Assembly (NCBI GenBank): GCA_046704885.1
Contig: JBJKRB010000111.1
Span: forward strand, 15,003-79,002
Origin: Thermoanaerobaculia bacterium
GTDB lineage: Bacteria; Acidobacteriota; Thermoanaerobaculia; Multivoradales; JBJKRB01
Length of the DNA stretch: 64,000 nucleotides
Direction: 5' to 3'
Part shown: positions 39,353-51,581 of the stretch, in pieces
Layout: every line of letters begins with the position of its first letter
Numbering within the stretch: position 1 is the stretch's first letter
Program-made: the position numbers and the translations under genes
Notes under the pieces: model-generated
Databases searched by the model: none
Told to the model about the DNA's origin: nothing
The model's input: the letters and a program-made list of their open reading frames with translations, nothing else

Positions 39353-40057
39353 TCAAGGGACGGCCTGGTTGTGGGCGGTCGGGGTCGTCCCGGGTATAAC
39401 TTGACCGCGGAAGGGGCGCCAAAAGGCCCCCGTCGAAAGCCGCGGCAACGGTCCGTTGTGCGGACCGAGTCTGATCCCGACCGCGGTTTGCGCAAGTTTG
39501 ACGGTGAAAAGCCACTGATCGTACTGTCGCTTGCCGAAAAAGGAAATGAGCGAATGACCGGTGCTCTTGCTGTGCACGCCGAGGATCGGTCGCAGGGTTT
39601 GCGTCGTTCCATCCCCCTGGTCTTGCCCCTGGGTGCCCTGCTCCTCGCCGAAGCCATTCTCCTGCCCATTCTGTGGATAGACCTGGCCGCCGGGCTGCAT
39701 CGACTGGCCGCTCCCCTGCCCCGGCCTCAAGCCGGGACTGGGCATCGGACTGCCCGCGTAGATCAAGGCCCACTCCCCATTCTTGGTCATCGGGTCCTTC
39801 CACAAGCGGCGGATGGATCGCGGCTTGACGTCGAGCAGCTCTTGCAGACGGACCGGATAGCGGCCGAACCGTTCATGAAACACGCGGATGGCCTCGGCGT
39901 ACTGGAGACCCCGGAAGATCAGCTCATGCTCCTTCTCCCGCTGCATCCGCTGGCTCCAGATCGGGATCAGCACCGCCAGCATCACGTTCATCACCGCGAT
40001 CAGAACGATCAAGGTAATGAGAGTGAAACCGGCCTCCGGTTGGCTGCGGCCCTGCAT
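39353..40057 (-). CDS. Prepilin-type N-terminal domain protein lacking Glu5, with Gln/Gly-rich insert (minor pseudopilin candidate)
   Basis: The internal Met at 40057 forms an ATGA overlap with the upstream stop. The protein starts MQGRSQPEAG/FTLITLIVLIAVMNVMLAVLI and contains a low-complexity stretch (GQGSGQSMQPGGQVYPQNGQENGFGEEQGTQGQDQGDG). Confidence 0.75.
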   Translation of the reverse strand: MQGRSQPEAGFTLITLIVLIAVMNVMLAVLIPIWSQRMQREKEHELIFRGLQYAEAIRVFHERFGRYPVRLQELLDVKPRSIRRLWKDPMTKNGEWALIYAGSPMPSPGLRPGQGSGQSMQPGGQVYPQNGQENGFGEEQGTQGQDQGDGTTQTLRPILGVHSKSTGHSLISFFGKRQYDQWLFTVKLAQTAVGIRLGPHNGPLPRLSTGAFWRPFRGQVIPGTTPTAHNQAVP

Positions 40058-40509
40058 CACCAGTCCTTGTAGAACGAGCCGTCCAGGCTCTTGAGCGGTG
40101 AGCCCGAATGCACGTCGATGATGCCCGGTTGCTGATCCACAGAAGAGCTCGACTGGCTCCCTTCGTCCGGGTTCTGCTCCTCGTAGACGACCGTCCACGT
40201 CTGGTTGCTCTTGGTGATGGGATCTACCGGGATCGCCCGTAGATACTTTTCTGTCACCAGGGCATCGAGCGACGGCGGGTAGACCCCTTTATCGGCATAG
40301 TACTGATCGATCGCCTCTCGGAACGCGCGCAGGTCCGTCTTGAGCGCGGTTTCCGCGGCCTTGCGCGGGACGTTCTTGAGCTGTGGCATGACGATCGCGG
40401 CGAGAATCCCGATGATGGCGATGACGATGATCATCTCAAGCAGGGTAAACCCAGCCTGGCGCGCGCCTTGCCGCCATTGTCGTACGGAGTTTCGATCGCT
40501 TTCTACCAT
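40057..40509 (-). CDS. GspG-like type II secretion pseudopilin
   Basis: The internal Met at 40509 gives leader MVESDRNSVRQWRQGARQAG/FTLLEMIIVIAIIGILAAIV. A GspG-like core is present (IDQYYADKGVYPPSLDALV...AIPVDP). Confidence 0.85.
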   Translation of the reverse strand: MVESDRNSVRQWRQGARQAGFTLLEMIIVIAIIGILAAIVMPQLKNVPRKAAETALKTDLRAFREAIDQYYADKGVYPPSLDALVTEKYLRAIPVDPITKSNQTWTVVYEEQNPDEGSQSSSSVDQQPGIIDVHSGSPLKSLDGSFYKDW

Positions 40510-41021
40510 TTGCTGTATTTGATGCCGTCGAGTCCAGTTCCAGTGCTGAGCGAGTAGACGTCGTAAACGTCTTCGCCTCCCCAAGTCGTCGAGTCGGGCT
40601 CGTCCTGATAGCTCCGCAGGCCCCATTTTGCCTCCCCCGTCATCGGATCGACGGGAATGCGGCGCAAGAACTTCACCTTTTGGTCGACCTTGCCGACCAG
40701 CTTGACCCCATCCACTAGGACCTGAAGATTCTTCGGATAGCCGTCACTGCCGAGCTCGACCGGAATCAAGCCGGCATCACTGTAGCGCTTGTACTCGTCA
40801 ATCGCGTTCCGCATCTCTCGGAGGTCCTGCCTGAGGTCGAGCTCCCTGGTCCTCTTGGCCGTGTAGTGCGCCATCGGCAAGACCGTGGCGGCGAGAATCG
40901 CGAGGATCGCGGTTACGATGACCAGCTCCATCAGGGTAAACCCCGCCTCCCGGCGCTGCGCGATTCGCGCCGAGCGCGCAGGATTGATGGAGAGTGAAGC
41001 GCGTTTCATCGAGAGGGTCAA
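40503..41021 (-). CDS. GspG-like type II secretion pseudopilin (paralog)
   Basis: 172 aa with leader ...RIAQRREAG/FTLMELVIVTAILAILAATV and core IDEYKRYSDAGLIP...RIPVDPMTG. The C-terminus (YSKW) parallels that of its neighbour (YKDW). Confidence 0.85.
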   Translation of the reverse strand: MTLSMKRASLSINPARSARIAQRREAGFTLMELVIVTAILAILAATVLPMAHYTAKRTRELDLRQDLREMRNAIDEYKRYSDAGLIPVELGSDGYPKNLQVLVDGVKLVGKVDQKVKFLRRIPVDPMTGEAKWGLRSYQDEPDSTTWGGEDVYDVYSLSTGTGLDGIKYSKW

Positions 41022-43612
41022 ACGTCCGAAGCACCGGGTTGCAGTGCATGCTGATGCAAGACGTGAGGGAGACTGGGTGCGATCGGCAGCGACAATGGAG
41101 GCGCAAAGACACCCGCCAGGGGACGGAGATCCGGTCCCAGCGCCTTGACCGTCTGAAAGCGAATGGAGGTCGGACCGGAAGCGAGCGCCTTGAATGTGAT
41201 TCGCAGGAGCTCGCCGCGACCGGTGACTCCCGGTATTCCCCCCAGACGGCTTGCGCCCACCACCAGTCGCCCGGGAACGGACGAGTCCGTCATCAGCGAC
41301 GAGCTCGCCGGGCCGCCGAAGAACGCTCCGCGCTCGACACCCACCACCGCCAAGTGCTGAGGATCGTAAGTCAAGGTCGCGGGCAGGTGTGAAATCGGCT
41401 CATGGGCGTCGACGGTCAAGGGAACCGAAAACGTCGATCCGACCTTGACCCCGTTCGCGGGGGACCCGAGCGTGACACTAATCGGCGCGAGCGGTGCGAC
41501 AGCCGGCTCGTAACTCGCCAAGACGATCCGGCCCGAATTGTTGCCAGGGAAATGCTCGCCACCGGTCGGGGCTCCCAGAAACGCCACCGGTTCCGGCCCT
41601 GGAGGCGGAGCTTCTTGATCTTGCTGATCGGGTGGAGTCGCCGGCTTCTCCGGCTTGGGCTCGGTGTTCCCTTCGAAGAGGTTCGACGGCGTCGAAGGAT
41701 TCGCGAGGTCCTTCCCTTTGGGGGCCTCCGGCTGGGCCTTCTCCTGGCTCTGGGTGTTCGCTCTATTGTTCCGCCTTGCCCGCGCGCCCGCCCGGCCACG
41801 GCGCACGCCTCTCGGCAGCTCCTCGAGACGACGACGAATCATCTGCTGGATCTGTTGGCGCTCGCCTCCCCCGAAGGGTCCCTCTTGGGGTGAGCCGACC
41901 TCGGGGCTTCCCCCGCGCAGGGAGAAGTTGGTCGCCGTTCCCACCCAGATCGGAAGCAGGTCCTGCTCGGTAATGTTGGCCGTGCGGATGATGTGTGGAG
42001 TAAGGGTGAGCACGAGATCCGTACGATGCCGGTCGGCATGAGTCTTCGAGAACAGGCGGCCGAGAACCGGGATGTCGCTGAGCCCTGGAATACCGTTCTC
42101 GGTGTCGGAATCATCGGTACGGATAAGACCGGCAAGGAGGTTGGTCTCACCGTCCTTGAGGCGAATGGTCGACGAGATGGCCCGCGTCCCGATGATCGGT
42201 TGCTGTTGTCCACCCGATCCCTGAACGTAACCCGAGAGGTTCGAGACGTCGATCTTCAGCTTCAGCGTGATCTCCTGGTTGTGGTGGATCCGGGGAGTGA
42301 TCTCGATCTGGATGCCCGTGTCCTTGTACTGGAACGAGGTGATGGGAACGATGTTCCCGCCCACCGTTTGCGCGGTGTTGAAGGTCGTGACGGGGATCGG
42401 AATGCTGTCGCCAATATGCAGGGTGGCCTTTTCGCCGTCGCTGATCCGGATGCGGGGATGAGCCAGAAGCTGGGCGTCGGAGCTGTTCTTGATGAAACTG
42501 TAGACGAAGCTCGGAATGCTCAGGACCCAGTCGTTCTGGTTGAGCGAGGAGAGATCGGAGAGCCGCACTCCGGAGCTGCCACTCCCGGTATCGAGCGTCT
42601 GCGTAACCTGATAGTTGCTCAAGGCGAGCCCAAGGTCGCGCAGCTTGCTCGTGTCGACCTGCAAGAGCTCCACATCGACAACCACTTCGCCGCGCGACTT
42701 GTCGTTAGCCTCGATGATTCTCTGCGCCACCCGTACCTTGTCGGCGGTGTCACGCACGATGATCGCATTCTGCTGCTCGTTGGCCGCGATATTGCGGGCG
42801 TCGATCAAGCTCCGCAGCATCGTCATTACGTCTTTGACGTCGGCATTGGACAAGAAGAACGTCTGGATTTCAAGATCCTCGTAGTTGCGGCGGTTTTGCG
42901 GCGTATCGGCTGCGATCAGGATGGTATGCGGGTCGATCACCTTGTAAAAATGCTGCGCCGCTCGCATCAACGTCTCGAGCGCCTTCTTCGCGGTCATGTC
43001 CTTCAACGTGATCGCGATTTTCTCGTCTTTGAGGTTCGGATCGAAAACGATGTTGATTCCAAAGGCCTTTCCCAAGGCGCGATAGATGTCGAAGATCGGC
43101 ACCGGCTTCGGGAAGGAAAGCGAGATGGGCTCTTTGGAGCGTGGATTGAGCACCGGTGGCTGGCTGTCCAGCTCCGCCTTCTTCTTGAGCTGATCGAGGG
43201 TCATCTGCCCATCCTCTTTGGCCCGCCGCGCGATGTCGGCGCGGACCTTCGCGAGCTCGACCATGGCGTACTGATTGGTGGGATCGAGCTGCACCGCTTG
43301 CTTGTACTCCACCATCGCGCGTTCGAGAACGCCTGCGTCCTGGTACGCCTTGCCCCTCTTGAAATGCTCCTCGGAGGCCTTGGTCCTGGCCTCGAGAAGC
43401 GCCGTTCGGTAGCGCACGTTCGTCGGGTCCTGCTCCAGCGCCTTCATGTAGGCAAAGACGGCGTCGTCCCAGTTACCGCTTTGCTCCGCGACCTGTGCCT
43501 TACGCTGGGTGCGGAGCGTTGCGCAACCAGCGAGCGACAGGGCCGCGAGCAAGACGATGAGCAGCGATCTCGAAGTTCTCTGCATGGCGGTGACCTCTAT
43601 CTTGAAATTCAT
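41018..43612 (-). CDS. Secretin (GspD/PilQ family) lipoprotein with N-terminal TPR region and C-terminal cohesin-like domain
   Basis: 864 aa with a lipobox (LSLAGC) and TPR-like helices (AVFAYMKALEQDPTNVRYR...). Secretin_N repeats are present (NAIIVRDTADKVRVAQRIIEANDK), as is the secretin core (LLAHPRIRISDGEKATLHIG...LVLTLTPHII). A Pro/Gln-rich linker leads to the cohesin-like end (GSTFSVPLTVDAHEPISHLPATLTYDPQHLAVVGVERG). Confidence 0.9.
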   Translation of the reverse strand: MNFKIEVTAMQRTSRSLLIVLLAALSLAGCATLRTQRKAQVAEQSGNWDDAVFAYMKALEQDPTNVRYRTALLEARTKASEEHFKRGKAYQDAGVLERAMVEYKQAVQLDPTNQYAMVELAKVRADIARRAKEDGQMTLDQLKKKAELDSQPPVLNPRSKEPISLSFPKPVPIFDIYRALGKAFGINIVFDPNLKDEKIAITLKDMTAKKALETLMRAAQHFYKVIDPHTILIAADTPQNRRNYEDLEIQTFFLSNADVKDVMTMLRSLIDARNIAANEQQNAIIVRDTADKVRVAQRIIEANDKSRGEVVVDVELLQVDTSKLRDLGLALSNYQVTQTLDTGSGSSGVRLSDLSSLNQNDWVLSIPSFVYSFIKNSSDAQLLAHPRIRISDGEKATLHIGDSIPIPVTTFNTAQTVGGNIVPITSFQYKDTGIQIEITPRIHHNQEITLKLKIDVSNLSGYVQGSGGQQQPIIGTRAISSTIRLKDGETNLLAGLIRTDDSDTENGIPGLSDIPVLGRLFSKTHADRHRTDLVLTLTPHIIRTANITEQDLLPIWVGTATNFSLRGGSPEVGSPQEGPFGGGERQQIQQMIRRRLEELPRGVRRGRAGARARRNNRANTQSQEKAQPEAPKGKDLANPSTPSNLFEGNTEPKPEKPATPPDQQDQEAPPPGPEPVAFLGAPTGGEHFPGNNSGRIVLASYEPAVAPLAPISVTLGSPANGVKVGSTFSVPLTVDAHEPISHLPATLTYDPQHLAVVGVERGAFFGGPASSSLMTDSSVPGRLVVGASRLGGIPGVTGRGELLRITFKALASGPTSIRFQTVKALGPDLRPLAGVFAPPLSLPIAPSLPHVLHQHALQPGASDV

Positions 43613-43627
43613 GACTCCCGGCCTTCA

Positions 43628-44179
43628 TCAGCCCCCAATTGGCAACCGCTGGGGAGGAGCGTCGGGAAAGCCGACGAACGCGATATCAACGGATTCGTAC
43701 CCGATCTTGGCGACGATGAACTTGCCCTCCAGGACGTCTCCTTCGAAGGCGTTGTAAATGTTCTTCCCATCTGTAAACACGGCGATCTGACGATCGTCCG
43801 GACCGAAGCTGCCGAGATAGCTGAGATCGATCTCCGGCGGGCGCGGTTTGGCGGGCGCTGTCTCGACCGGTGGTGGTGGCGGCGGCGTCTTGGCCGCCAC
43901 CTTCGGAGGAGGGGGCGGCGCGGGCTCGGGCGCGTAGCGAAACAGATCGCGTCCACCGCGGTATACCGCGGGTTGATGCTCGAGCGCGGCCAAGGCGAGA
44001 GTATCGGCGTGGGTTACCAACTTGCTGGATCTCTTGCCCGTCCGGCTGCTCGCGGTAACCACGCTCGCTACCGCGGGTCCCCCGGAGGATAGCCACCCAC
44101 GCAGCAGCCGCCAGCCTCCAAACAGCGCCACGATCACCAGGACGGCGAGCAGGACCCGCCGGCGTTCAGCCCCGCTCAC
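43628..44179 (-). CDS. PilP-like pilus/secretin-coupling protein (TM, Pro-rich linker, beta-domain)
   Basis: A GTG start at 44179 follows a GGAGGG SD and forms a GTGA overlap with the upstream stop. It has a TM (VLLAVLVIVALFGGW), a PPPPPKVAAKTPPPPPP linker and a C-terminal segment (IAVFTDGKNIYNAFEGDVLEGKFIVAKIGYESVDI). Confidence 0.6.
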   Translation of the reverse strand: MSGAERRRVLLAVLVIVALFGGWRLLRGWLSSGGPAVASVVTASSRTGKRSSKLVTHADTLALAALEHQPAVYRGGRDLFRYAPEPAPPPPPKVAAKTPPPPPPVETAPAKPRPPEIDLSYLGSFGPDDRQIAVFTDGKNIYNAFEGDVLEGKFIVAKIGYESVDIAFVGFPDAPPQRLPIGG

Positions 44180-44787
44180 GCGTTCCCTCCGGCGTGTTTC
44201 AGCGGGTGGTGGGGCGCGGGGCCCTCGGCAAACCAAGTCGAGATGCGCAAGTTGATCTGCAACTGATCTCCTTGGCGCGCCATTCCGCCGGACTCGCTCA
44301 AGCTCACCTCCTCCAAGATCAAGAAGGAGTTCGAGAGCTCGAGCAGATTGACAAGTTGTCTCAAATCGTCGTACGTTCCGCGCACGCCAAAAACGATCGA
44401 TCTCTTGGCAAGACCGTAGTCCTCGAAGGCTTGCTCGGGGTAGCTGATCGCCGTCGGCTCCAAGCCAGCTCGCTTCGCCAGTCCCTTGACCTCGGCGATG
44501 ATCTTGGTCAGACGCTCACTCTCCGTCCCGAGCCGCTTCGAGTAGAAATCGTCCACCTCCTGCTCGGTGCGTTTGGCATCACTCTGGGCTTTGCGCAGTT
44601 CCGCTTCTTGCTTCTCGATGTGCGCAAGCTCCAACTGGCTCGCTTCGAGCCGCTGCTGGACTGCGCTCACCCGACCGGCGAAGACGAGCTGGTAGGTCCC
44701 CAGGAAAACGAGGTTCAAGACCAGAAAGGCAAGCGCTGGCACCCAGAGACGGGTCCGCTCGCGGAAGGCTTCGCCCAACGGCCTCAC
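44176..44787 (-). CDS. PilO-like assembly protein
   Basis: 203 aa with one TM, a coiled-coil and a C-terminal ferredoxin-like region. It lies between the PilN-like and PilP-like genes with 4-nt overlaps. Confidence 0.65.
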   Translation of the reverse strand: MRPLGEAFRERTRLWVPALAFLVLNLVFLGTYQLVFAGRVSAVQQRLEASQLELAHIEKQEAELRKAQSDAKRTEQEVDDFYSKRLGTESERLTKIIAEVKGLAKRAGLEPTAISYPEQAFEDYGLAKRSIVFGVRGTYDDLRQLVNLLELSNSFLILEEVSLSESGGMARQGDQLQINLRISTWFAEGPAPHHPLKHAGGNA

Positions 44788-45470
44788 GACTTGGTCCCCT
44801 CTTTAGATTGCGGCTTCTCCGCCGCCTTGTGAGCCGCCGGAGCGGCCGGCGCCTTGGCGCTCGGCGCCTCCGCGCCCGGCTGGTACTTGACCGTCATGCT
44901 GAAGCGTAGGTCCCCGCTCCGCTCTCTCGACTCATGGGAAGGGTTGGGATCGTCAAAAGCCTTGTTGTGGAAGAGCGCATCGATGAAGTCGAGCATGTCC
45001 TTCCCGGACTTGGCCTCGCCTTCCACCGCGAGCTGAATTTGGTTCGTCTTCCGACGGGCGCTCTCGGCCTCATCGCGTATCCCTCCTACCGGAAAGTGCG
45101 GTGCCAGGCGCAGAAGGCGAGCGTCCCGCGGCAGAGCCTCGCTCAGGCGATCGAAGAGGAAGCTCCACGAAAAGGCGCGCTGGTCGATCTGATCGTTGAG
45201 AAACTCGACCTGTTTGTTCTGCCACCCGAGATCCGATGATCGCAACACAGCCTCCGTTCGGGCTACTCGCGCCTGACCCTCGGTGACTTGCGACTTGACG
45301 CGCGCCAGCGCCTCGCTCTTGTTGCCAAAACCGGAGAAGTAGCCCCAGTAGAGGTATCCATTCCCCAGCGCCAGGAGGCCTCCGAGCACCCAGAAAAGAA
45401 TCGCCGCTCGCACTACCGGGCGCTGGTTGATGAACGGCCGTCGCGCCAAGTTGAGACCGACGTGCTTCAC
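44784..45470 (-). CDS. PilN-like assembly protein
   Basis: 228 aa with an N-terminus (HVGLNLARRPFINQRP) and a TM matching the conserved PilN INLLP-type start. Confidence 0.7.
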   Translation of the reverse strand: MKHVGLNLARRPFINQRPVVRAAILFWVLGGLLALGNGYLYWGYFSGFGNKSEALARVKSQVTEGQARVARTEAVLRSSDLGWQNKQVEFLNDQIDQRAFSWSFLFDRLSEALPRDARLLRLAPHFPVGGIRDEAESARRKTNQIQLAVEGEAKSGKDMLDFIDALFHNKAFDDPNPSHESRERSGDLRFSMTVKYQPGAEAPSAKAPAAPAAHKAAEKPQSKEGTKS

Positions 45471-46447
45471 ATCACCTCCTGCGCCGCGGCGCCCAACAAG
45501 GGCGCGACCTCCATGAGACTGACCGATGGCAGCTCGCCGGCTAGCGGTAGCTCGCTGGCACGCAGAGGCTCCACGACCGCACCAAAGGCGGCGCTCAGGA
45601 GCTCTTGCCAGGCAGGCTCGTCGCCCGGCGACCCGAGCAGCCAGACGCGCCCAAGCGACTTGTCCTCGAAATGATTCTCGATAAAGGTCGTAGTCAACCG
45701 CAAATCCTGTTCCACCGCTGCCTTCTGGCGGGGCTCGCCGAGCGTGCCAAGCAGAGTTTTCACGCGATAGAGGAGCAGCCCGCGCTCGTCACTCAACAAG
45801 AGGGTGTACGAATCTGGGCGCACGATCATCACTGCGGTCAGGCTCTGTTCCTCCTCGCGTGGCAGAGCCGGTAAGAGAGCGAGGCTCTCGTTCGCGATCC
45901 AACCGATTCTCACACCTCGTCTGGCGAACGCCGCTTCGAGCTGTCCGAGAAGGTTCTCGATCGCGAAGCCGAGAAGAATCCTCAGCGGCTCTTCCTGTCC
46001 GGGCAAGGGGGGCGCCTCGGCCGCCCCGATTCGCAGATCATCGACCCGAAAAGGTACCAGCCTTCGCAGTTTCCAGCGCAACACCTCGTTGCGCTCGCTT
46101 TGCTTCCTGGGAAGGGCGTTTATCTCGGTAAAAACCGTCCGCAGCCACGCCTCGGGCAAGACCAGAGAAGCCTCCGGGACCGCAACCGAGACCTTTGAGA
46201 GCAGCTCATCGAGCGACAAGTCGAACGAGTCACGATCGCGCAAGGGACCGCCCAAGGGTCCGGGAAGAAAATTCTCCGGCTTGAGCTCGACGCGGCGGAA
46301 CTCGTTGAAGCGGAACTTCGAATCGGTCGCCTCGAAGCGGGCGTACGAGATCGTGGCGCCATCGACCGCAAAGACATGCGGCGGAGCGGAGACCGCACCG
46401 ACCCCGGTCAAGCGCTTAATCCACGAAGGTGACTTTATTGATCTCAC
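45467..46447 (-). CDS. PilM/GspL-like cytoplasmic actin-fold assembly protein
   Basis: 326 aa and soluble, sitting directly upstream of the PilN-like gene. I saw no clear nucleotide-binding motifs. The start is uncertain because it overlaps the ATPase gene by 32 nt. Confidence 0.6.
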   Translation of the reverse strand: MRSIKSPSWIKRLTGVGAVSAPPHVFAVDGATISYARFEATDSKFRFNEFRRVELKPENFLPGPLGGPLRDRDSFDLSLDELLSKVSVAVPEASLVLPEAWLRTVFTEINALPRKQSERNEVLRWKLRRLVPFRVDDLRIGAAEAPPLPGQEEPLRILLGFAIENLLGQLEAAFARRGVRIGWIANESLALLPALPREEEQSLTAVMIVRPDSYTLLLSDERGLLLYRVKTLLGTLGEPRQKAAVEQDLRLTTTFIENHFEDKSLGRVWLLGSPGDEPAWQELLSAAFGAVVEPLRASELPLAGELPSVSLMEVAPLLGAAAQEVM

Positions 46448-48056
46448 GAAGCGTGGTTACCCCCTGAAAGACCTTCTCAAGCGCCGATTCGCGCAGAAAT
46501 ACCATCCCCTCTTCCTTGGCGGCTCGTTTGATTTCGGACGCCGGCCGGCGAGCCAGAATGAGCTCGCGAATGCGATCCGAAAGATCGAGGAGCTCGGAGA
46601 TCGCCAAGCGGCCGTGGAACCCGGCGCCATTGCACTCGATGCACCCCGCGCCCTCGTAGAAGGTGTACCCGCCATAGACCTCGGGATCCAGACCGCTCAC
46701 CTCGAGCAGCTCCGGAGATACCTTGGCGGGACGCCGGCAATGGTCGCAGATCCTGCGCACCAGACGCTGGGCCAGGACGCAGTTGAGCGCCGAGACGAAG
46801 TTGTAGGGATCGACCTTCATGTGGAGAAATCGTCCCAGAACGTCGACGACGTTGTTGGCGTGCACTGTGGTAAAGACCAGGTGCCCGGTCAGTGCCGCTT
46901 GAATGGCGATCTGCGCCGTCTCCTCGTCGCGGATCTCCCCCACCATCACCTTGTCCGGGTCATGGCGCAGAATCGAACGCAGCCCGCGGGCGAAGGTCAG
47001 CCCCTTCTTTTCGTTGACGGGGATCTGAGTGATCCCGCCGAGCTGATACTCGACGGGGTCCTCGATGGTGATGATCTTGTCCTCCGACGATTGGATCTCG
47101 GCCAGACAGGCGTAGAGCGTGGTGGTCTTTCCTGAGCCTGTGGGCCCGGTCACCAGCACCATGCCGTACGGCTCACGAATGAACTTGCGCAACTTGCGCA
47201 TCGTGTCCTCGTCGAAACCAAGGACATCCAGGCGCAGGTTCTTGAACTCCTTGTTCATCGACTCTTTGTCGAGAATCCGGATTACGCAGTCCTCGCCATG
47301 AACCGAGGGCATGATGGAGACGCGAAAGTCGATGGTGCGCCCCTTCAGGCGTAGCTTGAAGCGGCCATCCTGCGGCACCCGCTTCTCGGCGATGTCGAGC
47401 TCCGACATCACCTTGATTCGGCTGATGATCGCCTGGTGATAACGCTTGTCGATAGGCTCCATCGCGTGGTACAGGACCCCGTCGATCCGATACTTGATCA
47501 GCACCTCGTTTTCGCCGGTCTCGATATGGATATCGCTTGCCCGGCGCTGGATCGCGTTGAAGAGAGTCGAATCGACGAGCTTGATGATCGGGCTCGTGTC
47601 CGAGGTAATGCTGTCGATGGACAGAACCTCGTCGCCGTCCTCGCCCTCCTGCACGAGCTGGATCCGGAAGTCCTCGGTCGCTTCGTCGAGCACTCGCTGC
47701 GTACTCTCGGACTTCTGAAGAATTTCCTCGATCGCGGTGCGCGCGCCGACCTTGACCTCGAGTGACTGACCGAGGAGAAGCTCGAGCTCGTCGAGCTTGG
47801 TCACATCGGAGGGGTCGGCCATCACTACCGCCAGCCGACCGTCGTGGCGCTCCTCGGGAATGAAGGTGTAGCGCAGCATGAGGTCGATGGGTATCGAGCG
47901 AAAGAGATTGCTGTTGATCCGGAACTTCCCCACGTCCACGAGCTCGAGACCAAGGGCGCGCGCGATCTCAGAAGCTTCCTGCTCCTCCTTTGCCCGGCGC
48001 TCCTGTTGGTCTTCCAGGCTCTGGACGATGGTGTCCGGATCGTTGATGTCCGTCAT
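46416..48056 (-). CDS. Type II secretion / type IV pilus assembly ATPase (GspE/PilB family)
   Basis: 546 aa with a T2SSE_N-type N-domain, Walker A (VTGPTGSGKTTT), Asp box, Walker B (MVGEIRD), His box and a tetracysteine site (CDHC...CIEC). Confidence 0.95.
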   Translation of the reverse strand: MTDINDPDTIVQSLEDQQERRAKEEQEASEIARALGLELVDVGKFRINSNLFRSIPIDLMLRYTFIPEERHDGRLAVVMADPSDVTKLDELELLLGQSLEVKVGARTAIEEILQKSESTQRVLDEATEDFRIQLVQEGEDGDEVLSIDSITSDTSPIIKLVDSTLFNAIQRRASDIHIETGENEVLIKYRIDGVLYHAMEPIDKRYHQAIISRIKVMSELDIAEKRVPQDGRFKLRLKGRTIDFRVSIMPSVHGEDCVIRILDKESMNKEFKNLRLDVLGFDEDTMRKLRKFIREPYGMVLVTGPTGSGKTTTLYACLAEIQSSEDKIITIEDPVEYQLGGITQIPVNEKKGLTFARGLRSILRHDPDKVMVGEIRDEETAQIAIQAALTGHLVFTTVHANNVVDVLGRFLHMKVDPYNFVSALNCVLAQRLVRRICDHCRRPAKVSPELLEVSGLDPEVYGGYTFYEGAGCIECNGAGFHGRLAISELLDLSDRIRELILARRPASEIKRAAKEEGMVFLRESALEKVFQGVTTLREINKVTFVD

Positions 48057-48122
48057 GAGTCCATCCCTCGCCTCGCTGTCGTCTTCACCACCGCCGTCAA
48101 CGCTAAATCCTCACGCACCGGA

Positions 48123-49340
48123 TCAGAAGCTCCCCTGGCCGAGCACGCTGTACATCGGCAGATAAACGGAAATAAGCAACGTGGCGACGATGATACCCAT
48201 CAGCACCAGCATGATCGGCTCGATCAGGGTCAACAGGCGCTGCAACTTGGTCTCGACCTCTTCGTCGATGAATTCAGAGAGGTCAGAAAGCATGGTCGCG
48301 AGGGCGCCGGTCGCCTCGCCCACTTTCACCATGTCGACGGCGATCGGAGAGAAGACCCCGCTGTCTTCCAGGGCTTGGTTCAAAGGTTCGCCTTCCTTCA
48401 CCGCCTGAATCGACGGGACGAGCTTCTGCCTGACGAAGCTGTTTCCGACCGCTCCGATCGAAGTCTCGAGCGACGGTACGAGCGGGATTCCTCCCGCCAA
48501 CAAGGTAGACAGAGCGCGCGTCATCTCGGACAGGGCAAAGCGATGGTAGATCCCTCCCAGCACAGGCAGCGAGAGCTTCCAACGATCCACCGCCTGGCGC
48601 CCGGTCGCGGTCTTCGTCCAACGCTGAATGGAGAACGTCAGCACAACGACCACGACCAAGAAGAAAGGCCAATTCTGCCGCAGAAATGCGGAGATCGCCA
48701 GAGTGGCGGTGGTGAGCATGGGCAGGTGGGCATTCATGTCCCTGTAGAGCATCCTGAACTTCGGAACCACGTAGATCATCATGATGACGATCATGATCGT
48801 CGATACCGTCAAAAGGACGGCCGGATAAACCAGGGCGGAGGTGACCCGCTTGCGGGCATCGAGCAGCAGCTCCTGGTAGCGCACGAAACGTCGAATCACG
48901 AGCTCGAGCTCACCGCTTCTCTCCCCGGCTTTCAGGCTCGAAGAGTAGAGTGGCGGAAAGACGTGCCCGAACTTGCCCACGGCGTCGGAGAGCTCTTCTC
49001 CCGTTCTCACGCCGTCACGAATCTCGGTAAGAACGTTGCGAAAGAAAGGATCACGCTGACGCTCGAGCATCAAGTCCAGCGCTTGTAGGAGCGGCAGGCC
49101 GGCCTTGAGCAGCGTCGCCAGCTCCTTGTTGAAGATCAGCAGCGTCCGCGCCGGAATATGGCGACGATGACGCAGAAGCTTGGGCAGGGCGAGATGCGGC
49201 GCCAAGCTGCGGGCGCGAAGGTCGAATACGTGATACCCCTCGCGCTCGAGCTCCCGTCGCAACAGGTCCTCGTCGCGCGCTTCGCGCACCTCCTCGCGCA
49301 CCCTTCCATCTGGAGTTCCCAATCGGCAGACGAACTCCAT
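48123..49340 (-). CDS. Type II secretion / type IV pilus platform protein (GspF/PilC family)
   Basis: The internal Met at 49340 is preceded by an AAGGAGAA RBS. The protein is 405 aa with two T2SSF repeats, three TMs and a C-terminal IVATLLISVYLPMYSV segment. Confidence 0.92.
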   Translation of the reverse strand: MEFVCRLGTPDGRVREEVREARDEDLLRRELEREGYHVFDLRARSLAPHLALPKLLRHRRHIPARTLLIFNKELATLLKAGLPLLQALDLMLERQRDPFFRNVLTEIRDGVRTGEELSDAVGKFGHVFPPLYSSSLKAGERSGELELVIRRFVRYQELLLDARKRVTSALVYPAVLLTVSTIMIVIMMIYVVPKFRMLYRDMNAHLPMLTTATLAISAFLRQNWPFFLVVVVVLTFSIQRWTKTATGRQAVDRWKLSLPVLGGIYHRFALSEMTRALSTLLAGGIPLVPSLETSIGAVGNSFVRQKLVPSIQAVKEGEPLNQALEDSGVFSPIAVDMVKVGEATGALATMLSDLSEFIDEEVETKLQRLLTLIEPIMLVLMGIIVATLLISVYLPMYSVLGQGSF

Positions 49341-49434
49341 CAGTTCTCCTTGCCTCGCGCCACGTCGGCGGTGGGCGCGGACGGGTGGCGCTCCCATAGA
49401 AGCGCTGGGGTCATCGGATTCCAGCCCTCTCTTC

Positions 49435-50244
49435 TCACCTTTTCTTCCCCTCCAGCGTGCCGTTGACAACGACCATGAGCGCGTGTTTGCTCGCCTCGTC
49501 TCGGGTCAATCCCAGAATCAGCGGCTCGGAGAGCCAGAGATTGAGGTCGGCGTGGACCAACGGTTTGCTCTCCTTGCCGTTCCTCCTCGCTCCGCGCTCG
49601 ATGGTGAACCCCCGTAGCTTGAGGCGCTGGCGAATCGCCGTGCCCAAGCGGAAGCGGACACGATAGACCGGACCGAGATCGTAGCTTACGCTTTCTCCCT
49701 CTCGCGTATGAAGCGTCGCTTGGGCCAGTACCCGATAGGCATCGAAGCGCAGAAGCTCATGGAGCTGCCGCATGAGCGCCGGTGCGAGGGCGGGCGACAT
49801 CGCTGTCGGTAAGCCACGTGGCCCAGCCTCGATCATCTGAAGCTCCAAGCGGATCGGCCTCGGTGGATGATCGAAGGCCATCAGAACCGAAATGATCCGG
49901 TGCAGGGCGTCCGCTCGATCCCGTATCACCAAGGTGTTTGTTTCAGGCTGCAGCTCCACCGTACCCCGCACACTCAAGAGCGGATACACCAAGGGAAGCG
50001 CATCGCGTGCCGTCTGATAGCGAAAGCTGTATGCATGAAGCACGACCGCCGGAGGGCGCCGAGGAGTGAGCGCGGGCGAGACTCGCGCCTGCTCGGCGGC
50101 TTCCCCGGCTACCGGCAGCACGAGAATCAGAGCGACGAGAGACGCGGAGCGAAGGAACCCCGAGCTGCGCAACCGCGCAGGTGAGAGCGCGGCCCTGGAG
50201 GCGACAAGCATAGAATTTGCTGGACGGAGCTGCCTAGACGTCAA
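49435..50244 (-). CDS. Short secretin-like protein (one Secretin_N/NolW-like domain plus a truncated secretin-core-like region)
   Basis: 269 aa with a signal/anchor segment (LVALILVLPVAGEA). The Secretin_N pattern is YSFRYQTARDALPLVYPLL...ETNTLVIRDRADALHRIISVLMAFD. This is followed by IRLELQMIEA and YRVLAQATLHTREGESVSY, which resemble the start of the secretin core. Confidence 0.6.
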   Translation of the reverse strand: MTSRQLRPANSMLVASRAALSPARLRSSGFLRSASLVALILVLPVAGEAAEQARVSPALTPRRPPAVVLHAYSFRYQTARDALPLVYPLLSVRGTVELQPETNTLVIRDRADALHRIISVLMAFDHPPRPIRLELQMIEAGPRGLPTAMSPALAPALMRQLHELLRFDAYRVLAQATLHTREGESVSYDLGPVYRVRFRLGTAIRQRLKLRGFTIERGARRNGKESKPLVHADLNLWLSEPLILGLTRDEASKHALMVVVNGTLEGKKR

Positions 50245-50800
50245 TGTGGCGGTCGACGATCATGACGACCGCCATCCCCTTGCCCCGAAGCTGGTAGATT
50301 CGCACCCCCCGTTCCTCCATCTTATCGATCAGCGGCGCCTCGTCGGTTGAAGCCGCCGCCACATGTTGGTTGGGCTGGTGATCCACCGCGTCCGCGGAGA
50401 ATGGAGACTCCGGCGCCGCCGCCGCGACCGCGGAGACTGCGGGACCCACCGCCGCACCATTCGCGCTCACACCCGTCCTTGCCTCTGGGGAAAACGCGAT
50501 CGAAGCCGCCAGCAGAAGCGCCGCAGCTAGGCCCCAGCCGGCCCGGGCCTTGCTCGACTGGCGCCCCTCGAAGCTCCGGCTTCGCCGCAACACCTCGACG
50601 CCAGCCCGCACCTGCTCGACCCCCTCCGCATCCATCTCGGGCTCGGGAAGGCGCCGAAACACCAGCGTGGGATCGACCCGCAGCGCCGCCGGCCAGCAGC
50701 GCTCGCAATGATCGAGGTGAGCCAAGGCGAGCTCCCAAGCCGCCTCTTCCTCACCATCCCTCGGCTCGTGGATGAAACGGGCCCAATCAGGGCAGCTCAT
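50234..50800 (-). CDS. Anti-sigma factor (zf-HC2 type, single TM)
   Basis: 188 aa with an N-terminal H-x3-C-x2-C motif (HLDHCERC) and a TM (GWGLAAALLLAASIAF). It overlaps the sigma gene by 4 nt. Confidence 0.75.
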   Translation of the reverse strand: MSCPDWARFIHEPRDGEEEAAWELALAHLDHCERCWPAALRVDPTLVFRRLPEPEMDAEGVEQVRAGVEVLRRSRSFEGRQSSKARAGWGLAAALLLAASIAFSPEARTGVSANGAAVGPAVSAVAAAAPESPFSADAVDHQPNQHVAAASTDEAPLIDKMEERGVRIYQLRGKGMAVVMIVDRHIDV

Positions 50801-51432
50801 GGCTCTCCCTCGGCGTAACGCCCGGCGTACTCAGGATAGAGGCGCAACAGCTCCCGGCGCAGGGTTCTCCGCGCGTTGAAGAGGTGGTTGCGGACCGTCG
50901 ACTGGCGACAACCCATGATGCGAGCCACCTCCGGCGTCGATAGCCCCTCGAGCTCCCGTAGGGTGAAGGCGATCCTCTGTTTCTCGCTCAGCTCGCGGGC
51001 GAGGCGCTGGAAGACGACCGTGATCTCTTTCTCTTGCAGCTGCTCCAGATTCTCGGAGCGCCGTCCCTCGCTCACCCGCTGAAGATGATGGCGGAAGGGC
51101 TCGTGCGTTCGCTCCCGGCTTCGCCGCGAGCGAAGATGATCGATGGCCAAGTTCGTGGCGATCCGGTAGATCCAGGTATTGGGGCTGTAGTGATCGTCGA
51201 ATCGGCTCCGATTTTCCCATACCCGTAAGAACGTGAGCTGCGCCACATCGCGGGCGTCCTCTTGATTGCCGACGATGCGCAAGGCCAGCCGCAGGATCGG
51301 CGGAGTCTTCCGCCGGATCAACTGATCCAGGGCCGCTTCATCGTCCTTGGCTAGGGCGAGAAGCAGCTCTCGATCGCTGGTCTCGGCCAGCTCTTGGCGG
51401 TGGCGGTTCTCGGAATAGACGAGTTCGGGCAC
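50797..51432 (-). CDS. ECF-type RNA polymerase sigma-70 family factor
   Basis: 211 aa with region 2 (DVAQLTFLRVWENRSRFD...WIYRIATNLAIDHLR) and a region 4 HTH (LSTPEVARIMGCRQSTVRNHLFNARRTL). Confidence 0.92.
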   Translation of the reverse strand: MPELVYSENRHRQELAETSDRELLLALAKDDEAALDQLIRRKTPPILRLALRIVGNQEDARDVAQLTFLRVWENRSRFDDHYSPNTWIYRIATNLAIDHLRSRRSRERTHEPFRHHLQRVSEGRRSENLEQLQEKEITVVFQRLARELSEKQRIAFTLRELEGLSTPEVARIMGCRQSTVRNHLFNARRTLRRELLRLYPEYAGRYAEGEP

Positions 51433-51540
51433 AATTCGACCTCAAAAGGGGTCTACGGCCAGGAGGACCAAAGTGTCTAACCTTTTCGATGCTCAGCCCC
51501 GAAGTGGGAGGGGGCGCTCGAGTCCTCCGAGGCTCGTGCC

Positions 51541-51569
51541 ATTATACTTTCACCGTCTCGGTGCGCCCA
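51541..51569 (-). promoter_or_regulatory. Candidate sigma-70-type promoter for the ECF sigma operon
   Basis: A perfect TATAAT lies on the minus strand (51546 to 51541). A weak -35 (TGGGCG) sits 17 nt upstream, about 110 nt before the sigma start codon. This is sequence resemblance only. Confidence 0.25.
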
Positions 51570-51581
51570 TCCATCGAACTC

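What the first reader, a model, noticed from the sequence alone, without database searches (positions are those of the whole stretch)
39353..51432. ECF-sigma-headed 12-kb operon encoding a hybrid T2SS / type IV filament machine
Thirteen co-directional genes lie on the minus strand, many with 4-nt overlaps. In order they encode ECF sigma, zf-HC2 anti-sigma, a mini-secretin, a GspF/PilC platform and a GspE/PilB ATPase. They continue with PilM-like, PilN-like, PilO-like and PilP-like proteins, the secretin, two GspG-like pseudopilins, one Glu5-less prepilin and dut. T2SS-type fibre subunits are combined with a T4P-type PilMNOP alignment complex instead of GspC/L/M. I see no prepilin peptidase, retraction ATPase or recognisable GspH/I/J set in the window. 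A dedicated ECF/anti-sigma pair at the head implies induction by an envelope or extracellular cue, which is not how canonical T2SS or T4aP loci are organised.
Basis: partly seen in the sequence, partly recalled or inferred. Interest (0 to 1): 0.7.

Follow-up and report, generated by a model that had tools for sequence, protein, structure and literature searches.

The report
ECF-sigma-headed unorthodox type II secretion operon
A soil Acidobacterium (class Thermoanaerobaculia) carries a tightly packed 14-gene operon for a secretion or pilus machine of a little-studied kind, also found in the plant pathogen Ralstonia, and here it has gained its own three-gene regulatory head: a sigma factor, an anti-sigma factor and a miniature secretin.

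Summary
Thirteen co-directional minus-strand genes lie at 39353-51432, and dut sits just outside at 38889-39347. The order is ECF sigma, anti-sigma, mini-secretin, GspF, GspE, PilM-, PilN-, PilO/GspM- and PilP/GspC-HR-like proteins, secretin, then three GspG-like prepilins.

The whole locus is syntenic in 44 species-level Thermoanaerobaculia genomes, including its flanks (lpxK-waaA and dut).

The "hybrid" is not a one-off. The ten-gene core (F-E-M-N-O-P-secretin-3 pilins) matches, gene for gene, the "unorthodox T2SS" on Ralstonia and Paraburkholderia megaplasmids (ATPase 50%, pilin-1 52% identity). That system is known but functionally uncharacterised.

What is particular here:
- **A three-gene head.** ECF sigma, ZAS-motif anti-sigma and a secretin-fold mini-protein are present or absent together.
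- **Two conserved promoters.** An upstream GTATAAT element is followed by an ECF-type TAGAC-N17-CGTA motif, which occurs once per locus, directly before the sigma gene.
- **An elaborated secretin.** It is a lipoprotein with a TPR N-terminus and a cohesin C-terminus.

I found no prepilin peptidase, PilT or GspH-K set in the window.

ECF control of a T2SS has a precedent (VreI-Hxc in Pseudomonas aeruginosa). Verdict: a new variant of a known kind, of moderate interest.

The parts
51541..51546 (-). Sigma-70-type -10 element TATAAT, within the conserved motif GCAGTATAATGG.
   Evidence: GTATAAT is present upstream of sigma in 36 of 37 loci. It occurs only 39 times on that strand in 751,671 nt of loci. 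In the head-less relative L052 the same motif lies 13 nt before the gspF ATG.
51452..51479 (-). ECF-type promoter: TAGACA, 16 nt, CGTAGA (class consensus TAGACG-N16-CGTATA).
   Evidence: This is the only exact match to TAGAC-N17-CGTA in the 64-kb window. The pattern occurs exactly once per locus in 34 loci, always on the operon strand just before sigma. It ends 9-14 nt before the start codon in 32 of 33 loci.
50797..51432 (-). ECF sigma factor, 211 aa, with sigma-2 and sigma-4 regions only.
   Evidence: Pfam Sigma70_r2 (4.6e-19), Sigma70_r4_2 (2.1e-16) and Sigma70_ECF. The nearest solved structures are AlgU/RpoE/SigE/SigW-type sigmas.
50234..50800 (-). Single-pass anti-sigma-like protein, 188 aa, with a ZAS-type motif.
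   Evidence: It overlaps the sigma gene by 4 nt. C3 and H28-x3-C32-x2-C35 are invariant. It has a transmembrane segment, a variable linker and a conserved C-terminal stretch of about 25 aa. Pfam zf-HC2 matches only weakly (4 of 15 orthologs, best E 0.066), and there is no PDB match.
49435..50211 (-). Mini-secretin: signal peptide, one Secretin_N domain and a reduced secretin-like beta domain.
   Evidence: Pfam Secretin_N matches in 15 of 15 orthologs. The AF2 model has pLDDT 80.8. The top 35 Foldseek PDB hits are all secretins, at E 2e-8 to 1e-4. It is usually not a lipoprotein: a lipobox-like motif was flagged in 5 of 41 orthologs, and only 2 look genuine. It was found only in Thermoanaerobaculia.
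48123..49340 (-). Inner-membrane platform GspF/PilC.
   Evidence: Pfam T2SSF, 5.7e-54. NCBIfam scores: GspF 317 bits, Thermus PilC 297 bits, both below cutoff.
46416..48056 (-). Assembly ATPase GspE/PilB.
   Evidence: Pfam T2SSE 1e-130 plus MshEN. NCBIfam scores: GspE 551 bits and PilB 548 bits, both below cutoff. Against the PDB: Geobacter PilB 443 bits, Vibrio GspE 382 bits. It is 50% identical to the Ralstonia unorthodox-T2SS GspE.
45467..46411 (-). PilM-like cytoplasmic protein.
   Evidence: The ortholog profile hits Thermus PilM 2ych (E 2.3e-5) and Myxococcus PilM (E 0.03). No Pfam hit.
44784..45470 (-). PilN-like bitopic protein.
   Evidence: The top profile hit is Thermus PilN 4bhq (E 0.013). 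The precomputed Pfam annotation of the orthologs in L001 and L048 is PilN. The N-terminus reads LNLARRPF. tblastn to the Ralstonia cluster gives E 7e-4.
44176..44787 (-). PilO/GspM-like bitopic protein.
   Evidence: 13 of 17 orthologs hit Pfam PilO (best 1e-5) and 11 of 17 hit T2SSM_b (best 4e-7). NCBIfam GspM_XpsM scores 36 bits, below cutoff.
43628..44179 (-). PilP/GspC-HR-like protein: N-terminal transmembrane helix, Pro-rich linker, C-terminal beta domain.
   Evidence: The AF2 model has pLDDT 80.9. The top 13 Foldseek hits are GspC-HR (3oss_C, TM 0.81, rmsd 1.9), PilP and GspB. hhalign to the fourth hypothetical gene of the Ralstonia cluster gives 97% probability.
41018..43612 (-). Liposecretin: lipobox, TPR, N0-like region, Secretin_N, Secretin, Pro-rich linker, Cohesin.
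   Evidence: Pfam domains. NCBIfam scores: GspD 182 bits, PilQ 135 bits. Against the PDB: XcpQ 79 bits, PilQ 58 bits. The lipobox Cys and the TPR are conserved in 30 of 30 orthologs, and the cohesin in 29 of 30.
40503..41009 (-). Prepilin 1, GspG-like, with a long basic leader and G|FTLME.
   Evidence: Pfam N_methyl and NCBIfam GspG at 35 bits. The leader and Glu5 are conserved. It is 52% identical to the first pseudopilin of the Ralstonia cluster.
40057..40509 (-). Prepilin 2, GspG-like, G|FTLLE. It is probably the major subunit.
   Evidence: Pfam N_methyl and T2SSG. NCBIfam GspG at 59.6 bits, below cutoff. Its profile aligns to PulG 5wda over residues 1-93.
39353..40057 (-). Prepilin 3, 234 aa, G|FTLIT (no Glu5).
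   Evidence: Sequence. NCBIfam GspG matches weakly. It is 26-32% identical to the third pseudopilin of the Ralstonia and Paraburkholderia clusters.
38889..39347 (-). dut (dUTPase), the last gene of the co-directional run.
   Evidence: NCBIfam dUTP diphosphatase at 184 bits, above the cutoff of 103. It lies directly after pilin 3 in every relative whose fetched DNA reaches that far: L001, L002, L050, L051 and L052, as it does in the window (on the identical contig L003).

Best explanation
The locus is one operon, inherited vertically throughout the class. It encodes a type II-secretion-like member of the type IV filament superfamily.

**The machine.** The ten-gene core is:
- the GspF platform and the GspE ATPase;
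- a split PilM/PilN pair, PilO/GspM, and a membrane-anchored protein with a GspC-HR/PilP-fold domain;
- a self-piloting TPR lipoprotein secretin;
- three GspG-like pseudopilins.

This core belongs to the same family as the "unorthodox T2SS" of Ralstonia solanacearum.

The inferred mechanism runs as follows. A prepilin peptidase encoded elsewhere cleaves the long leader peptides. The ATPase and platform polymerise a short pseudopilus. The M-N-O-P complex links it to the N0 region of the secretin. Periplasmic cargo, or the fibre itself, then passes through the secretin.

**The regulatory head.** In Thermoanaerobaculia a three-gene module has been placed between the ancestral sigma-70-type promoter and gspF. 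It consists of an ECF sigma, a ZAS-motif single-pass anti-sigma and a mini-secretin, and it brings its own ECF-type promoter.

The inferred logic is two-tiered. The TATAAT promoter gives basal transcription, which also serves dut. When an envelope signal releases the sigma from the anti-sigma, the autoregulated ECF promoter boosts the whole operon. The mini-secretin is most likely the periplasmic or outer-membrane partner of this signalling module.

**What is shown.** Gene content, homologies, folds, synteny, the two conserved promoter-like motifs, and the joint presence or absence of the three head genes.

**What is inferred.** Co-transcription, which sigma reads which promoter, secretion rather than piliation, and the role of the mini-secretin.
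For: **Anatomy and family assignments:**

**Synteny:** 44 GTDB species genomes, all Thermoanaerobaculia or Acidobacteriota, share the order. The ATPase is about 81-86% identical across them and M about 45%.

**Tight junctions:** intergenic gaps are short across the class. Terminator-like sites are not in excess (11 found against 10 expected).

**Promoters:**
- GTATAAT is present upstream of sigma in 36 of 37 loci.
- TAGAC-N17-CGTA is present in 33 of 37 loci, once per locus, and ends 9-14 nt before the start codon in 32 of those 33.
- The -10 part, CGTATA, resembles the sigma-W/RpoE type (promoter consensus from my own knowledge). The sigma itself is closest to AlgU/RpoE/SigW among solved structures.

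**The head as a unit:**
- L050 (M 31% identical) keeps sigma, anti-sigma and mini-secretin.
- L052 has the same flanks (lpxK-waaA and dut) but lacks all three, and GCAGTATAAT abuts gspF.
- L048, L049, L053 and L054 also lack all three.

**Cross-phylum core:**
- Identities to the Ralstonia and Paraburkholderia clusters: E 50-51%, secretin 30-31% starting at residues 14-15 (so the TPR is included), pilins 47-52%, 36-38% and 26-32%, N 23-24%.
- hhalign against the Ralstonia (L054) genes: P 97% probability, O 75%.
- Literature: PMC5080846.

**Secretin:** the lipobox Cys and TPR are conserved in 30 of 30 orthologs and the cohesin in 29 of 30.

**Precedent:** an ECF sigma controlling an adjacent T2SS, VreI with hxc (PMC2729926).
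Against: - There is no expression or secretion data for any member of this family.
- All four core proteins score below the NCBIfam equivalog cutoffs for both the T2SS and the T4aP models.
- The ATPase is slightly closer to PilB than to GspE among solved structures.
- The pilin N-termini match T4a pilins best.
- No GspH/I/J/K tip set, no substrate gene and no prepilin peptidase lies in cis.
- The anti-sigma assignment rests on position and the H-x3-C-x2-C motif. Pfam zf-HC2 is not significant and there is no PDB match.
- The mini-secretin's Foldseek matches have low TM-scores (about 0.3) and Pfam sees no Secretin domain in it.
- The deep-branching L050 lacks the exact ECF motif.
Confidence: 0.6

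Rival explanations
1. The machine builds a real surface pilus, for adhesion, DNA uptake or motility, and is not a secretion piston. On this view it is a divergent type IV pilus.
For: - PilM and PilN are split, as in T4aP.
- The ATPase scores 443 bits against Geobacter PilB and 382 against GspE.
- The pilin alpha-1 helices match Geobacter and T4a pilins best.
- The prepilin leaders are long.
- The TPR N-terminus of the secretin resembles the T4P pilotins PilW and Tgl (weak NCBIfam hits).
Against: - There is no PilT/PilU in the window.
- The pilins have GspG-type C-terminal regions. They contain no Cys and so no D-region disulfide (sequences).
- The secretin and platform score higher on the GspD and GspF models.
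- Only three pilins are present, and no PilVWX-type minor pilins.
- The Ralstonia homologues are annotated as T2SS.
Confidence: 0.25
2. The ECF pair does not control the machine genes. The cassette runs constitutively from the sigma-70-type promoter. The sigma/anti-sigma pair, with or without the mini-secretin, is a separate stress module that happens to sit at the head and regulates itself or distant genes.
For: - The TATAAT element is conserved, and it alone precedes gspF in the head-less L052.
- dut, a housekeeping gene, sits at the operon's tail.
- Relatives work without the head.
Against: - The ECF motif occurs only here in each locus of about 20 kb, and once in the 64-kb window.
- No terminator or conserved internal promoter lies between the head and gspF. 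In most species the gap is 6-50 nt.
- The three head genes lie inside the operon, downstream of its promoter, across the class.
Confidence: 0.15
3. The mini-secretin is a structural part of the conduit, not a signalling partner of the anti-sigma. It could be a second ring, or a co-assembling subunit that lengthens the short N0-N1 vestibule of the large secretin.
For: - It has a ring-building Secretin_N domain and a secretin-like beta domain.
- The large secretin has only one Secretin_N domain, whereas a classical GspD has N0-N3 (for this protein; GspD architecture from my own knowledge).
Against: - It is absent from every relative that lacks the sigma/anti-sigma pair, although those relatives keep a comparable secretin.
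- Its gene sits with the regulators, upstream of gspF, not beside the secretin.
Confidence: 0.3

Closest known systems
"Unorthodox" T2SS clusters of the Ralstonia solanacearum species complex, and the matching Paraburkholderia megaplasmid cluster
   Same: The gene order is the same: F-E, four small genes (M, N, O, P), a TPR-secretin and three pseudopilins.

Identities to the window:
- ATPase 50-51%
- secretin 30-31%, including the TPR
- pilin-1 47-52%
- P: hhalign probability 97% (Ralstonia cluster)

Sources; PMC5080846.
   Different: - These clusters have no ECF sigma, anti-sigma or mini-secretin.
- Their secretins carry no cohesin domain.
- They have an extra gspG, upstream of gspF in Ralstonia and downstream on the opposite strand in Paraburkholderia.
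- They sit on megaplasmids, not between LPS genes and dut.

Their function is equally unknown.
Canonical T2SS (Gsp/Xcp/Pul)
   Same: The GspD, E, F and G homologues each score best on the T2SS models, though only marginally for E. The pseudopilin C-terminal regions are GspG-like. P has an HR-fold domain on a transmembrane anchor, as GspC does.
   Different: - M and N are split rather than fused as GspL.
- P has no PDZ or coiled-coil domain.
- There are no GspH/I/J/K and no GspO in cis.
- The secretin has TPR + N0 + a single N domain, not N0-N3 plus an S domain.
Type IVa pilus machine (PilBCMNOPQ)
   Same: The PilM/N/O/P-type alignment complex is encoded directly upstream of the secretin. The ATPase is highly similar to PilB.
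   Different: - There is no PilT.
- There are no AMIN domains on the secretin.
- The pilins are GspG-like and lack a disulfide.
- P is not a lipoprotein.
- Everything lies in one locus, together with the ATPase and platform.
PUMA3 (VreA-VreI-VreR) beside the Hxc T2SS of Pseudomonas aeruginosa
   Same: An ECF sigma and an anti-sigma are encoded next to a T2SS whose genes the sigma induces. A third, periplasmic, "receptor-like" protein is built from a domain shared with secretins and TonB-dependent receptors (PMC2729926). HxcQ is also a lipoprotein secretin (my own knowledge, not checked here).
   Different: - VreR is FecR-type, whereas this anti-sigma has a ZAS motif.
- VreA has an STN domain plus a TolA/TonB-like domain, not Secretin_N plus a secretin-like beta domain.
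- Hxc is a canonical T2SS with GspC/L/M.
- The gene order differs (vreA-vreI-vreR).
TPR lipoprotein pilotins (PilF/PilW/Tgl)
   Same: The N-terminus of the secretin is a lipobox followed by TPR repeats. It gives weak NCBIfam hits to PilW and Tgl and a stronger one to Myxococcus TraC.
   Different: Here the TPR lipoprotein is fused to the secretin itself, not encoded as a separate protein.

Membership tests
Canonical T2SS | GspD, GspE, GspF and GspG homologues encoded together. | tested here: met
   The best NCBIfam model for each is the T2SS one: GspE 551, GspF 317, GspD 182, GspG 60 bits. All four are below the equivalog cutoffs.
Canonical T2SS | A fused GspL (cytoplasmic actin-like domain plus periplasmic domain) together with GspM and GspC. 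| tested here: not met
   There are separate PilM-like and PilN-like genes. O is PilO/GspM-like. P has only the HR fold, without PDZ.
Canonical T2SS | Minor pseudopilins GspH/I/J/K. | tested here: not met
   Only three prepilins are present, and each scores best on GspG. The GspH and GspJ hits are confined to the N-terminal helix.
Canonical T2SS | Secretion of folded periplasmic proteins. | not testable with these tools
   There is no substrate gene in cis and no experimental data.
Type IVa pilus | PilM, PilN, PilO, PilP and PilQ encoded together. | tested here: met
   The secretin follows directly.
Type IVa pilus | Retraction ATPase PilT. | tested here: not met
   None in the 64-kb window.
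Type IVa pilus | A major pilin with a disulfide-bonded D-region, plus PilVWX/FimU minor pilins. | tested here: not met
   No Cys occurs in the mature part of the three prepilins, read from their refined starts (sequences). Their C-termini are GspG-like.
Ralstonia-type "unorthodox T2SS" cassette | The order F-E-four small genes-secretin-three pseudopilins, with pairwise homology. | tested here: met
   tblastn and hhalign detect E, F, N, O, P, Q and all three pilins. M was not detected at the sequence level.
ECF sigma / anti-sigma pair | A sigma with only regions 2 and 4. | tested here: met
   Pfam Sigma70_r2, Sigma70_r4_2 and Sigma70_ECF in a protein of 211 aa.
ECF sigma / anti-sigma pair | A co-transcribed membrane anti-sigma with a ZAS motif (H-x3-C-x2-C). 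| tested here: inconclusive
   The motif and an upstream Cys are invariant in 15 orthologs, and there is one transmembrane segment. However, Pfam zf-HC2 reaches only E 0.066 in 4 of 15, and there is no PDB match.
ECF sigma / anti-sigma pair | An autoregulatory ECF-type promoter upstream of the sigma gene. | tested here: met
   As a sequence motif only: TAGAC-N17-CGTA occurs once per locus, always before sigma. Recognition by this sigma was not tested.
Secretin family (for the mini-secretin) | A Secretin_N ring-building domain. | tested here: met
   PF03958 matches in 15 of 15 orthologs.
Secretin family (for the mini-secretin) | A C-terminal secretin beta-barrel domain (PF00263). | tested here: inconclusive
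   There is no Pfam hit. The AF2 model's top 35 Foldseek hits are all secretins at probability 1.0, but with TM-scores of about 0.3.
TonB-dependent cell-surface signalling (FecA/FecR/FecI type) | A FecR-type anti-sigma and a receptor carrying an STN domain. | tested here: not met
   The anti-sigma has no FecR domain. The mini-secretin has Secretin_N, not STN.

The most novel reading that the evidence does not exclude
The ECF sigma, the ZAS-motif anti-sigma and the mini-secretin form a previously undescribed secretin-coupled envelope signalling module.

On this reading a miniature secretin in the outer membrane or periplasm reports the state of the secretion pore, or the presence of cargo or an external cue. 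It passes the signal to the short conserved C-terminal peptide of the anti-sigma. The sigma is released and the machine's own operon is amplified.

This would be a secretion-system analogue of TonB-dependent cell-surface signalling and of VreA/VreR/VreI.
Probability: 0.25. Interest if true: 0.75.

Novelty: new variant of a known kind. Interest (0 to 1): 0.5.

Why it matters
**A family, not a curiosity.** The "four hypothetical genes" of the uncharacterised Ralstonia unorthodox T2SS can now be read as a PilM/N/O/P-type alignment complex. That cassette is an old, cross-phylum branch of the type IV filament superfamily, intermediate in make-up between T2SS and T4aP. It bears on how GspL/M/C and PilMNOP diverged.

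**A natural experiment in regulation.** The Thermoanaerobaculia version offers the same cassette with and without a three-gene ECF head, sitting between the same flanking genes. The two conserved promoter motifs give directly testable predictions.

**The mini-secretin.** It may be the smallest secretin-fold protein seen so far (my impression, not a survey). If it is a signalling component, that would be a new use of the secretin fold.

**Ecology.** For an abundant, barely cultured soil lineage, this locus is a universal envelope machine of unknown cargo.

Tried and rejected
**Look-ups and searches that failed or added nothing**
- An exact look-up of the window ATPase found nothing on record.
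It was rerun with 8 sequences.
- Profiles of O and P against PDB sequences gave nothing. P orthologs against Pfam gave only low-complexity noise. The fold search was what resolved P.
- hhalign of the M profile against the first Ralstonia hypothetical gene was not significant.
- The anti-sigma profile had no PDB match.
- Rfam found only a tRNA in the window, and nothing in the promoter region.
- Literature searches found no description of this system in Acidobacteria or Thermoanaerobaculia, and the main text of the ECF reclassification paper lists no ECF group associated with a T2SS or T4P context.

**Readings considered and rejected**
- A recent horizontally acquired island. GC content is like the surroundings, and synteny with the LPS genes and dut holds class-wide.
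- An MSH pilus. There are no MshM/N/F-type genes, and MshL scores below both GspD and PilQ.
- Internal promoters or terminators splitting the operon.
- c-di-GMP control through the ATPase N-terminus. By eye, residues 1-34 lack the RLGxxLLxxG-type motif (motif recalled from memory). This is inference only.

Full report
**1. What is there**

The window has about 63% GC, with no compositional break at the locus. ORF listing and translation show an uninterrupted minus-strand run from 51432 down to 38889.

Pfam and NCBIfam assign the genes as follows:
- **Sigma:** an ECF sigma with regions 2 and 4 only.
- **Anti-sigma:** a 188-aa protein with no family match.
- **Mini-secretin:** a 258-269-aa protein (depending on which start is used) with a single Secretin_N domain.
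- **Platform:** a T2SSF protein.
- **ATPase:** T2SSE plus MshEN.
- **M, N, O, P:** four small proteins with no matches or only weak ones.
- **Secretin:** 864 aa with TPR, an N0-like region, Secretin_N, Secretin, a Pro-rich linker and Cohesin.
- **Prepilins:** two proteins carrying N_methyl, then a third prepilin-like protein.
- **dut.**

Gene calls on an identical public contig and ortholog alignments refine several starts. GspF begins at 49340, M at 46411 and P at 44179. The pilins begin at 41009, 40509 and 40057.

Four junctions overlap by 4 nt: sigma/anti-sigma, M/N, N/O and O/P. The rest are gaps of 5-94 nt or overlaps of 1-7 nt. Terminator-like hairpins are not enriched (11 found against 10.0 expected).

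dut lies just outside the finding's coordinates.

Pfam scans of 47 further likely ORFs across the window found no prepilin peptidase, PilT or other pilus gene. The neighbours are LPS-core genes (waaA, lpxK, a heptosyltransferase) on one side and a TonB-receptor-like outer-membrane protein on the other.

**2. The locus is real and conserved**

The secretin has thousands of relatives. The nearest are all from Thermoanaerobaculia or Acidobacteriota metagenome-assembled genomes and share the same TPR-secretin-cohesin architecture.

I scanned one genome per GTDB species with a mini-secretin alignment. This returned 44 loci, all Thermoanaerobaculia or Acidobacteriota. In every locus long enough, tblastn finds the same order (gene calls):

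lpxK-waaA (divergent) | sigma - anti-sigma - mini-secretin - F - E - M - N - O - P - Q - pilin1 - pilin2 - pilin3 (- dut)

Typical identities to the window are about 81-86% for the ATPase, 51-66% for the secretin, about 45% for M and about 30-45% for the anti-sigma. This is a vertically inherited, class-wide operon.

**3. The four small genes**

- **M.** An ortholog profile hits Thermus PilM (2ych, E 2.3e-5) and Myxococcus PilM.
- **N.** The top profile hit is Thermus PilN (4bhq, E 0.013). Two orthologs carry a precomputed Pfam PilN annotation. The N-terminus, LNLARRPF, resembles the INLLP motif through which PilN binds PilM (motif from my own knowledge).
- **O.** Thirteen of 17 orthologs hit Pfam PilO and 11 of 17 hit T2SSM_b. 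PilO and GspM are homologous families.
- **P.** No sequence match was found. Its AlphaFold model (pLDDT 80.9) has an N-terminal transmembrane helix, a Pro-rich linker and a small beta domain. The top 13 Foldseek hits to that domain are GspC-HR (3oss_C, TM 0.81, rmsd 1.9 A), PilP and GspB.

So the alignment complex is split in the PilM/PilN manner, which is T4P-like. Its fourth member is membrane-anchored like GspC, not lipidated like Pseudomonas PilP.

**4. T2SS or T4P?**

The signals are mixed.
- **NCBIfam bit scores:** GspE 551 and PilB 548; GspF 317 and PilC 297; GspD 182 and PilQ 135; GspG is the best model for all three pilins. Every score is below the equivalog cutoff.
- **Solved structures:** the ATPase is nearer to Geobacter and Myxococcus PilB (443 and 423 bits) than to Vibrio GspE (382). 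The secretin is nearer to XcpQ/GspD (79) than to PilQ (58).
- **Pilins:** the N-terminal helices match T4a pilins and geopilins. Beyond the helix, only PulG/GspG aligns. The pilins have no cysteines. Their C-termini carry the GspG-like pattern IPxDP...W...S.G.DG..Y..W (read directly from the sequences).

Denise et al. 2019 keep a "generic" class for systems of this kind, including chimeric ones, and 884 systems remained in it (PMC6668835). I could not run their models.

**5. The core is a known but uncharacterised family**

phmmer of M against 1.84 billion cluster representatives gives 488 clusters at E <= 1e-3 and 103 at E <= 1e-30.

Distant members (27-33% identity) sit in the same F-E-M-N-O-P-TPR-secretin-pilins cassette.

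tblastn of the ATPase against plasmids finds about 50% identity to "GspE/PulE family" genes on Ralstonia solanacearum and Paraburkholderia megaplasmids. Their context is F - E - four hypothetical genes - a secretin annotated "tetratricopeptide repeat protein" or "PilQ" - three pseudopilins, with an extra gspG nearby (upstream of gspF in Ralstonia, downstream on the opposite strand in Paraburkholderia).

Compared with the window:
- The secretin aligns from residues 14-15, so the TPR is included, at 30-31% identity.
- The three pilins are 47-52%, 36-38% and 26-32% identical, in the same order.
- N is 23-24% identical.
- P is homologous to the fourth Ralstonia hypothetical gene (hhalign 97% probability) and O to the third (75%).
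- M was not significant.

This is the "unorthodox T2SS" of the R. solanacearum species complex, described as seven core genes with four hypothetical genes between gspE and gspD (PMC5080846; PMC6428702). I found no functional study of it.

**6. What is specific to Thermoanaerobaculia**

*(a) The head.* A deep-branching relative, L050 (M 31% identical), keeps sigma, anti-sigma and mini-secretin. L052 has the same lpxK-waaA and dut flanks but lacks all three. So do L048, L049 and the betaproteobacterial clusters. The three genes therefore behave as one module.

*(b) The anti-sigma.* C3 and H28-x3-C32-x2-C35 are invariant, which is the ZAS motif. The protein has one transmembrane segment, a variable linker and a conserved C-terminal peptide of about 25 residues, consensus RPxARVYQMxGExLSVVMIVDESLDV. 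Pfam zf-HC2 is not significant and there is no PDB match. The assignment is therefore probable, not proven.

*(c) The mini-secretin.* It has a signal peptide and is usually not a lipoprotein. Secretin_N matches in all orthologs. The AlphaFold model (pLDDT 80.8) has an eight-strand beta domain. Its top 35 Foldseek hits are all secretins, including InvG, GspD, PilQ and pIV, at E 2e-8 to 1e-4. The TM-scores are low (about 0.3), which may reflect comparing a monomer model with subunits of assembled rings. The family was found only in this class.

*(d) The secretin.* The lipobox Cys and the TPR are conserved in 30 of 30 orthologs, and the C-terminal cohesin in 29 of 30. The residue after the Cys is never Asp in the orthologs inspected, which fits outer-membrane sorting (Lol rule from my own knowledge). 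The TPR lipoprotein part resembles a fused pilotin (weak PilW and Tgl hits).

**7. Promoters**

I aligned the 160 nt upstream of sigma from 38 genomes. Two islands of conservation stand out in otherwise variable sequence.

- **GCAGTATAATGG.** GTATAAT is present in 36 of 37 loci. It occurs only 39 times on that strand in 751,671 nt of loci.
- **TAGACG-N16-CGTATA.** This lies 16-169 nt downstream of the first element. The exact pattern TAGAC-N17-CGTA occurs once per locus in 34 loci, always at this position, and once in the 64-kb window, at 51454-51479.

The second motif ends 9-14 nt before the start codon in 32 of 33 loci. Transcripts from it would therefore be leaderless or nearly so. In the window the spacing is 19 nt from the end of the CGTAGA hexamer to the GTG, with a GAGG Shine-Dalgarno sequence in between.

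The CGTA-type -10 element is typical of RpoE/SigW-like ECF promoters (my own knowledge). The sigma's nearest solved relatives are AlgU, SigE, RpoE and SigW.

In the head-less L052 the TATAAT motif lies 13 nt before the gspF ATG and no ECF motif is present.

The simplest reading is this. An ancestral sigma-A promoter drives the cassette. In Thermoanaerobaculia, the sigma, anti-sigma and mini-secretin, with an autoregulated ECF promoter, lie between that promoter and gspF. Whether the head was gained or lost cannot be told from these data.

dut is housekeeping and is always the last gene, so some constitutive read-through is likely.

**8. Mechanism, known systems and verdict**

The best-supported mechanism, its rivals and their refutation tests are given in the fields above.

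The closest regulatory precedent is PUMA3. VreI (an ECF sigma), VreR and the periplasmic receptor-like VreA lie next to the hxc T2SS genes and induce them (PMC2729926).

The main text of the ECF reclassification paper mentions a secretion-system context only for ECF32, with a T3SS (PMC7826278). No paper in the searchable library describes this locus.

This is a new variant of a known kind. The core machine belongs to a known but unstudied family. The ECF, anti-sigma and mini-secretin head and the TPR-secretin-cohesin fusion appear to be undescribed.

Noticed in passing
window 38889-39347 (-): dut (dUTPase) is the last gene of the pilus/secretion operon, 5 nt after pilin 3. The same placement is seen in every relative whose fetched DNA reaches that far (L001, L002, L050, L051, L052). 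It is odd for a housekeeping gene to depend on this operon's promoters.
   Followed up: partly
window 51489-51600 (+): The longest waaA ORF, starting at 51489, runs across both conserved promoter motifs. Comparison with orthologs of 422-425 aa puts the real start near 51600. That leaves a divergent intergenic region of about 165 nt.
   Followed up: partly
loci L014, L026, L027, L033, L038 and others, gspF-gspE intergenic region: Many genomes share the sequence CACTCTGCTG directly after the gspF stop codon, followed by a GC-rich hairpin. It could be an mRNA-stability or attenuation element. It is absent from the window.
   Followed up: no
L032, between P and the secretin (142 nt): A tandem repeat of about 30 nt (GACGCGGATGCTTTCGCGCCGGGCCGTAAT) is inserted in the P-Q intergenic region of one genome.
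   Followed up: no
window 58592-61027 (-) and 61024-63561 (-): Two adjacent large ORFs (811 and 845 aa) have gene-like codon bias but no Pfam match at E <= 1e-4.
   Followed up: no
L001 15231-17147 and L002 14647-16560: In two relatives a 637-638-aa Phosphodiest (PF01663) enzyme follows dut, directly in L002 and after two small ORFs in L001. L001 also has an alkaline phosphatase nearby. These are conceivable cargo, recalling Hxc and its alkaline phosphatase. Neither gene is present at this position in the window.
   Followed up: no
L048 275-6808: A distant head-less relative of the cassette carries extra prepilin-like genes upstream, including a 977-aa N_methyl protein and an 812-aa protein. 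They may be a tip or minor-pilin set that this window lacks.
   Followed up: no
window 17279-25711: This is a signalling cluster: a hybrid histidine kinase, a response-regulator adenylate/guanylate cyclase, and a patatin-like phospholipase with two cNMP-binding domains. It appears unrelated to the finding.
   Followed up: no
window 15590-15663 (+): A single tRNA gene, the only Rfam match in the window.
   Followed up: no
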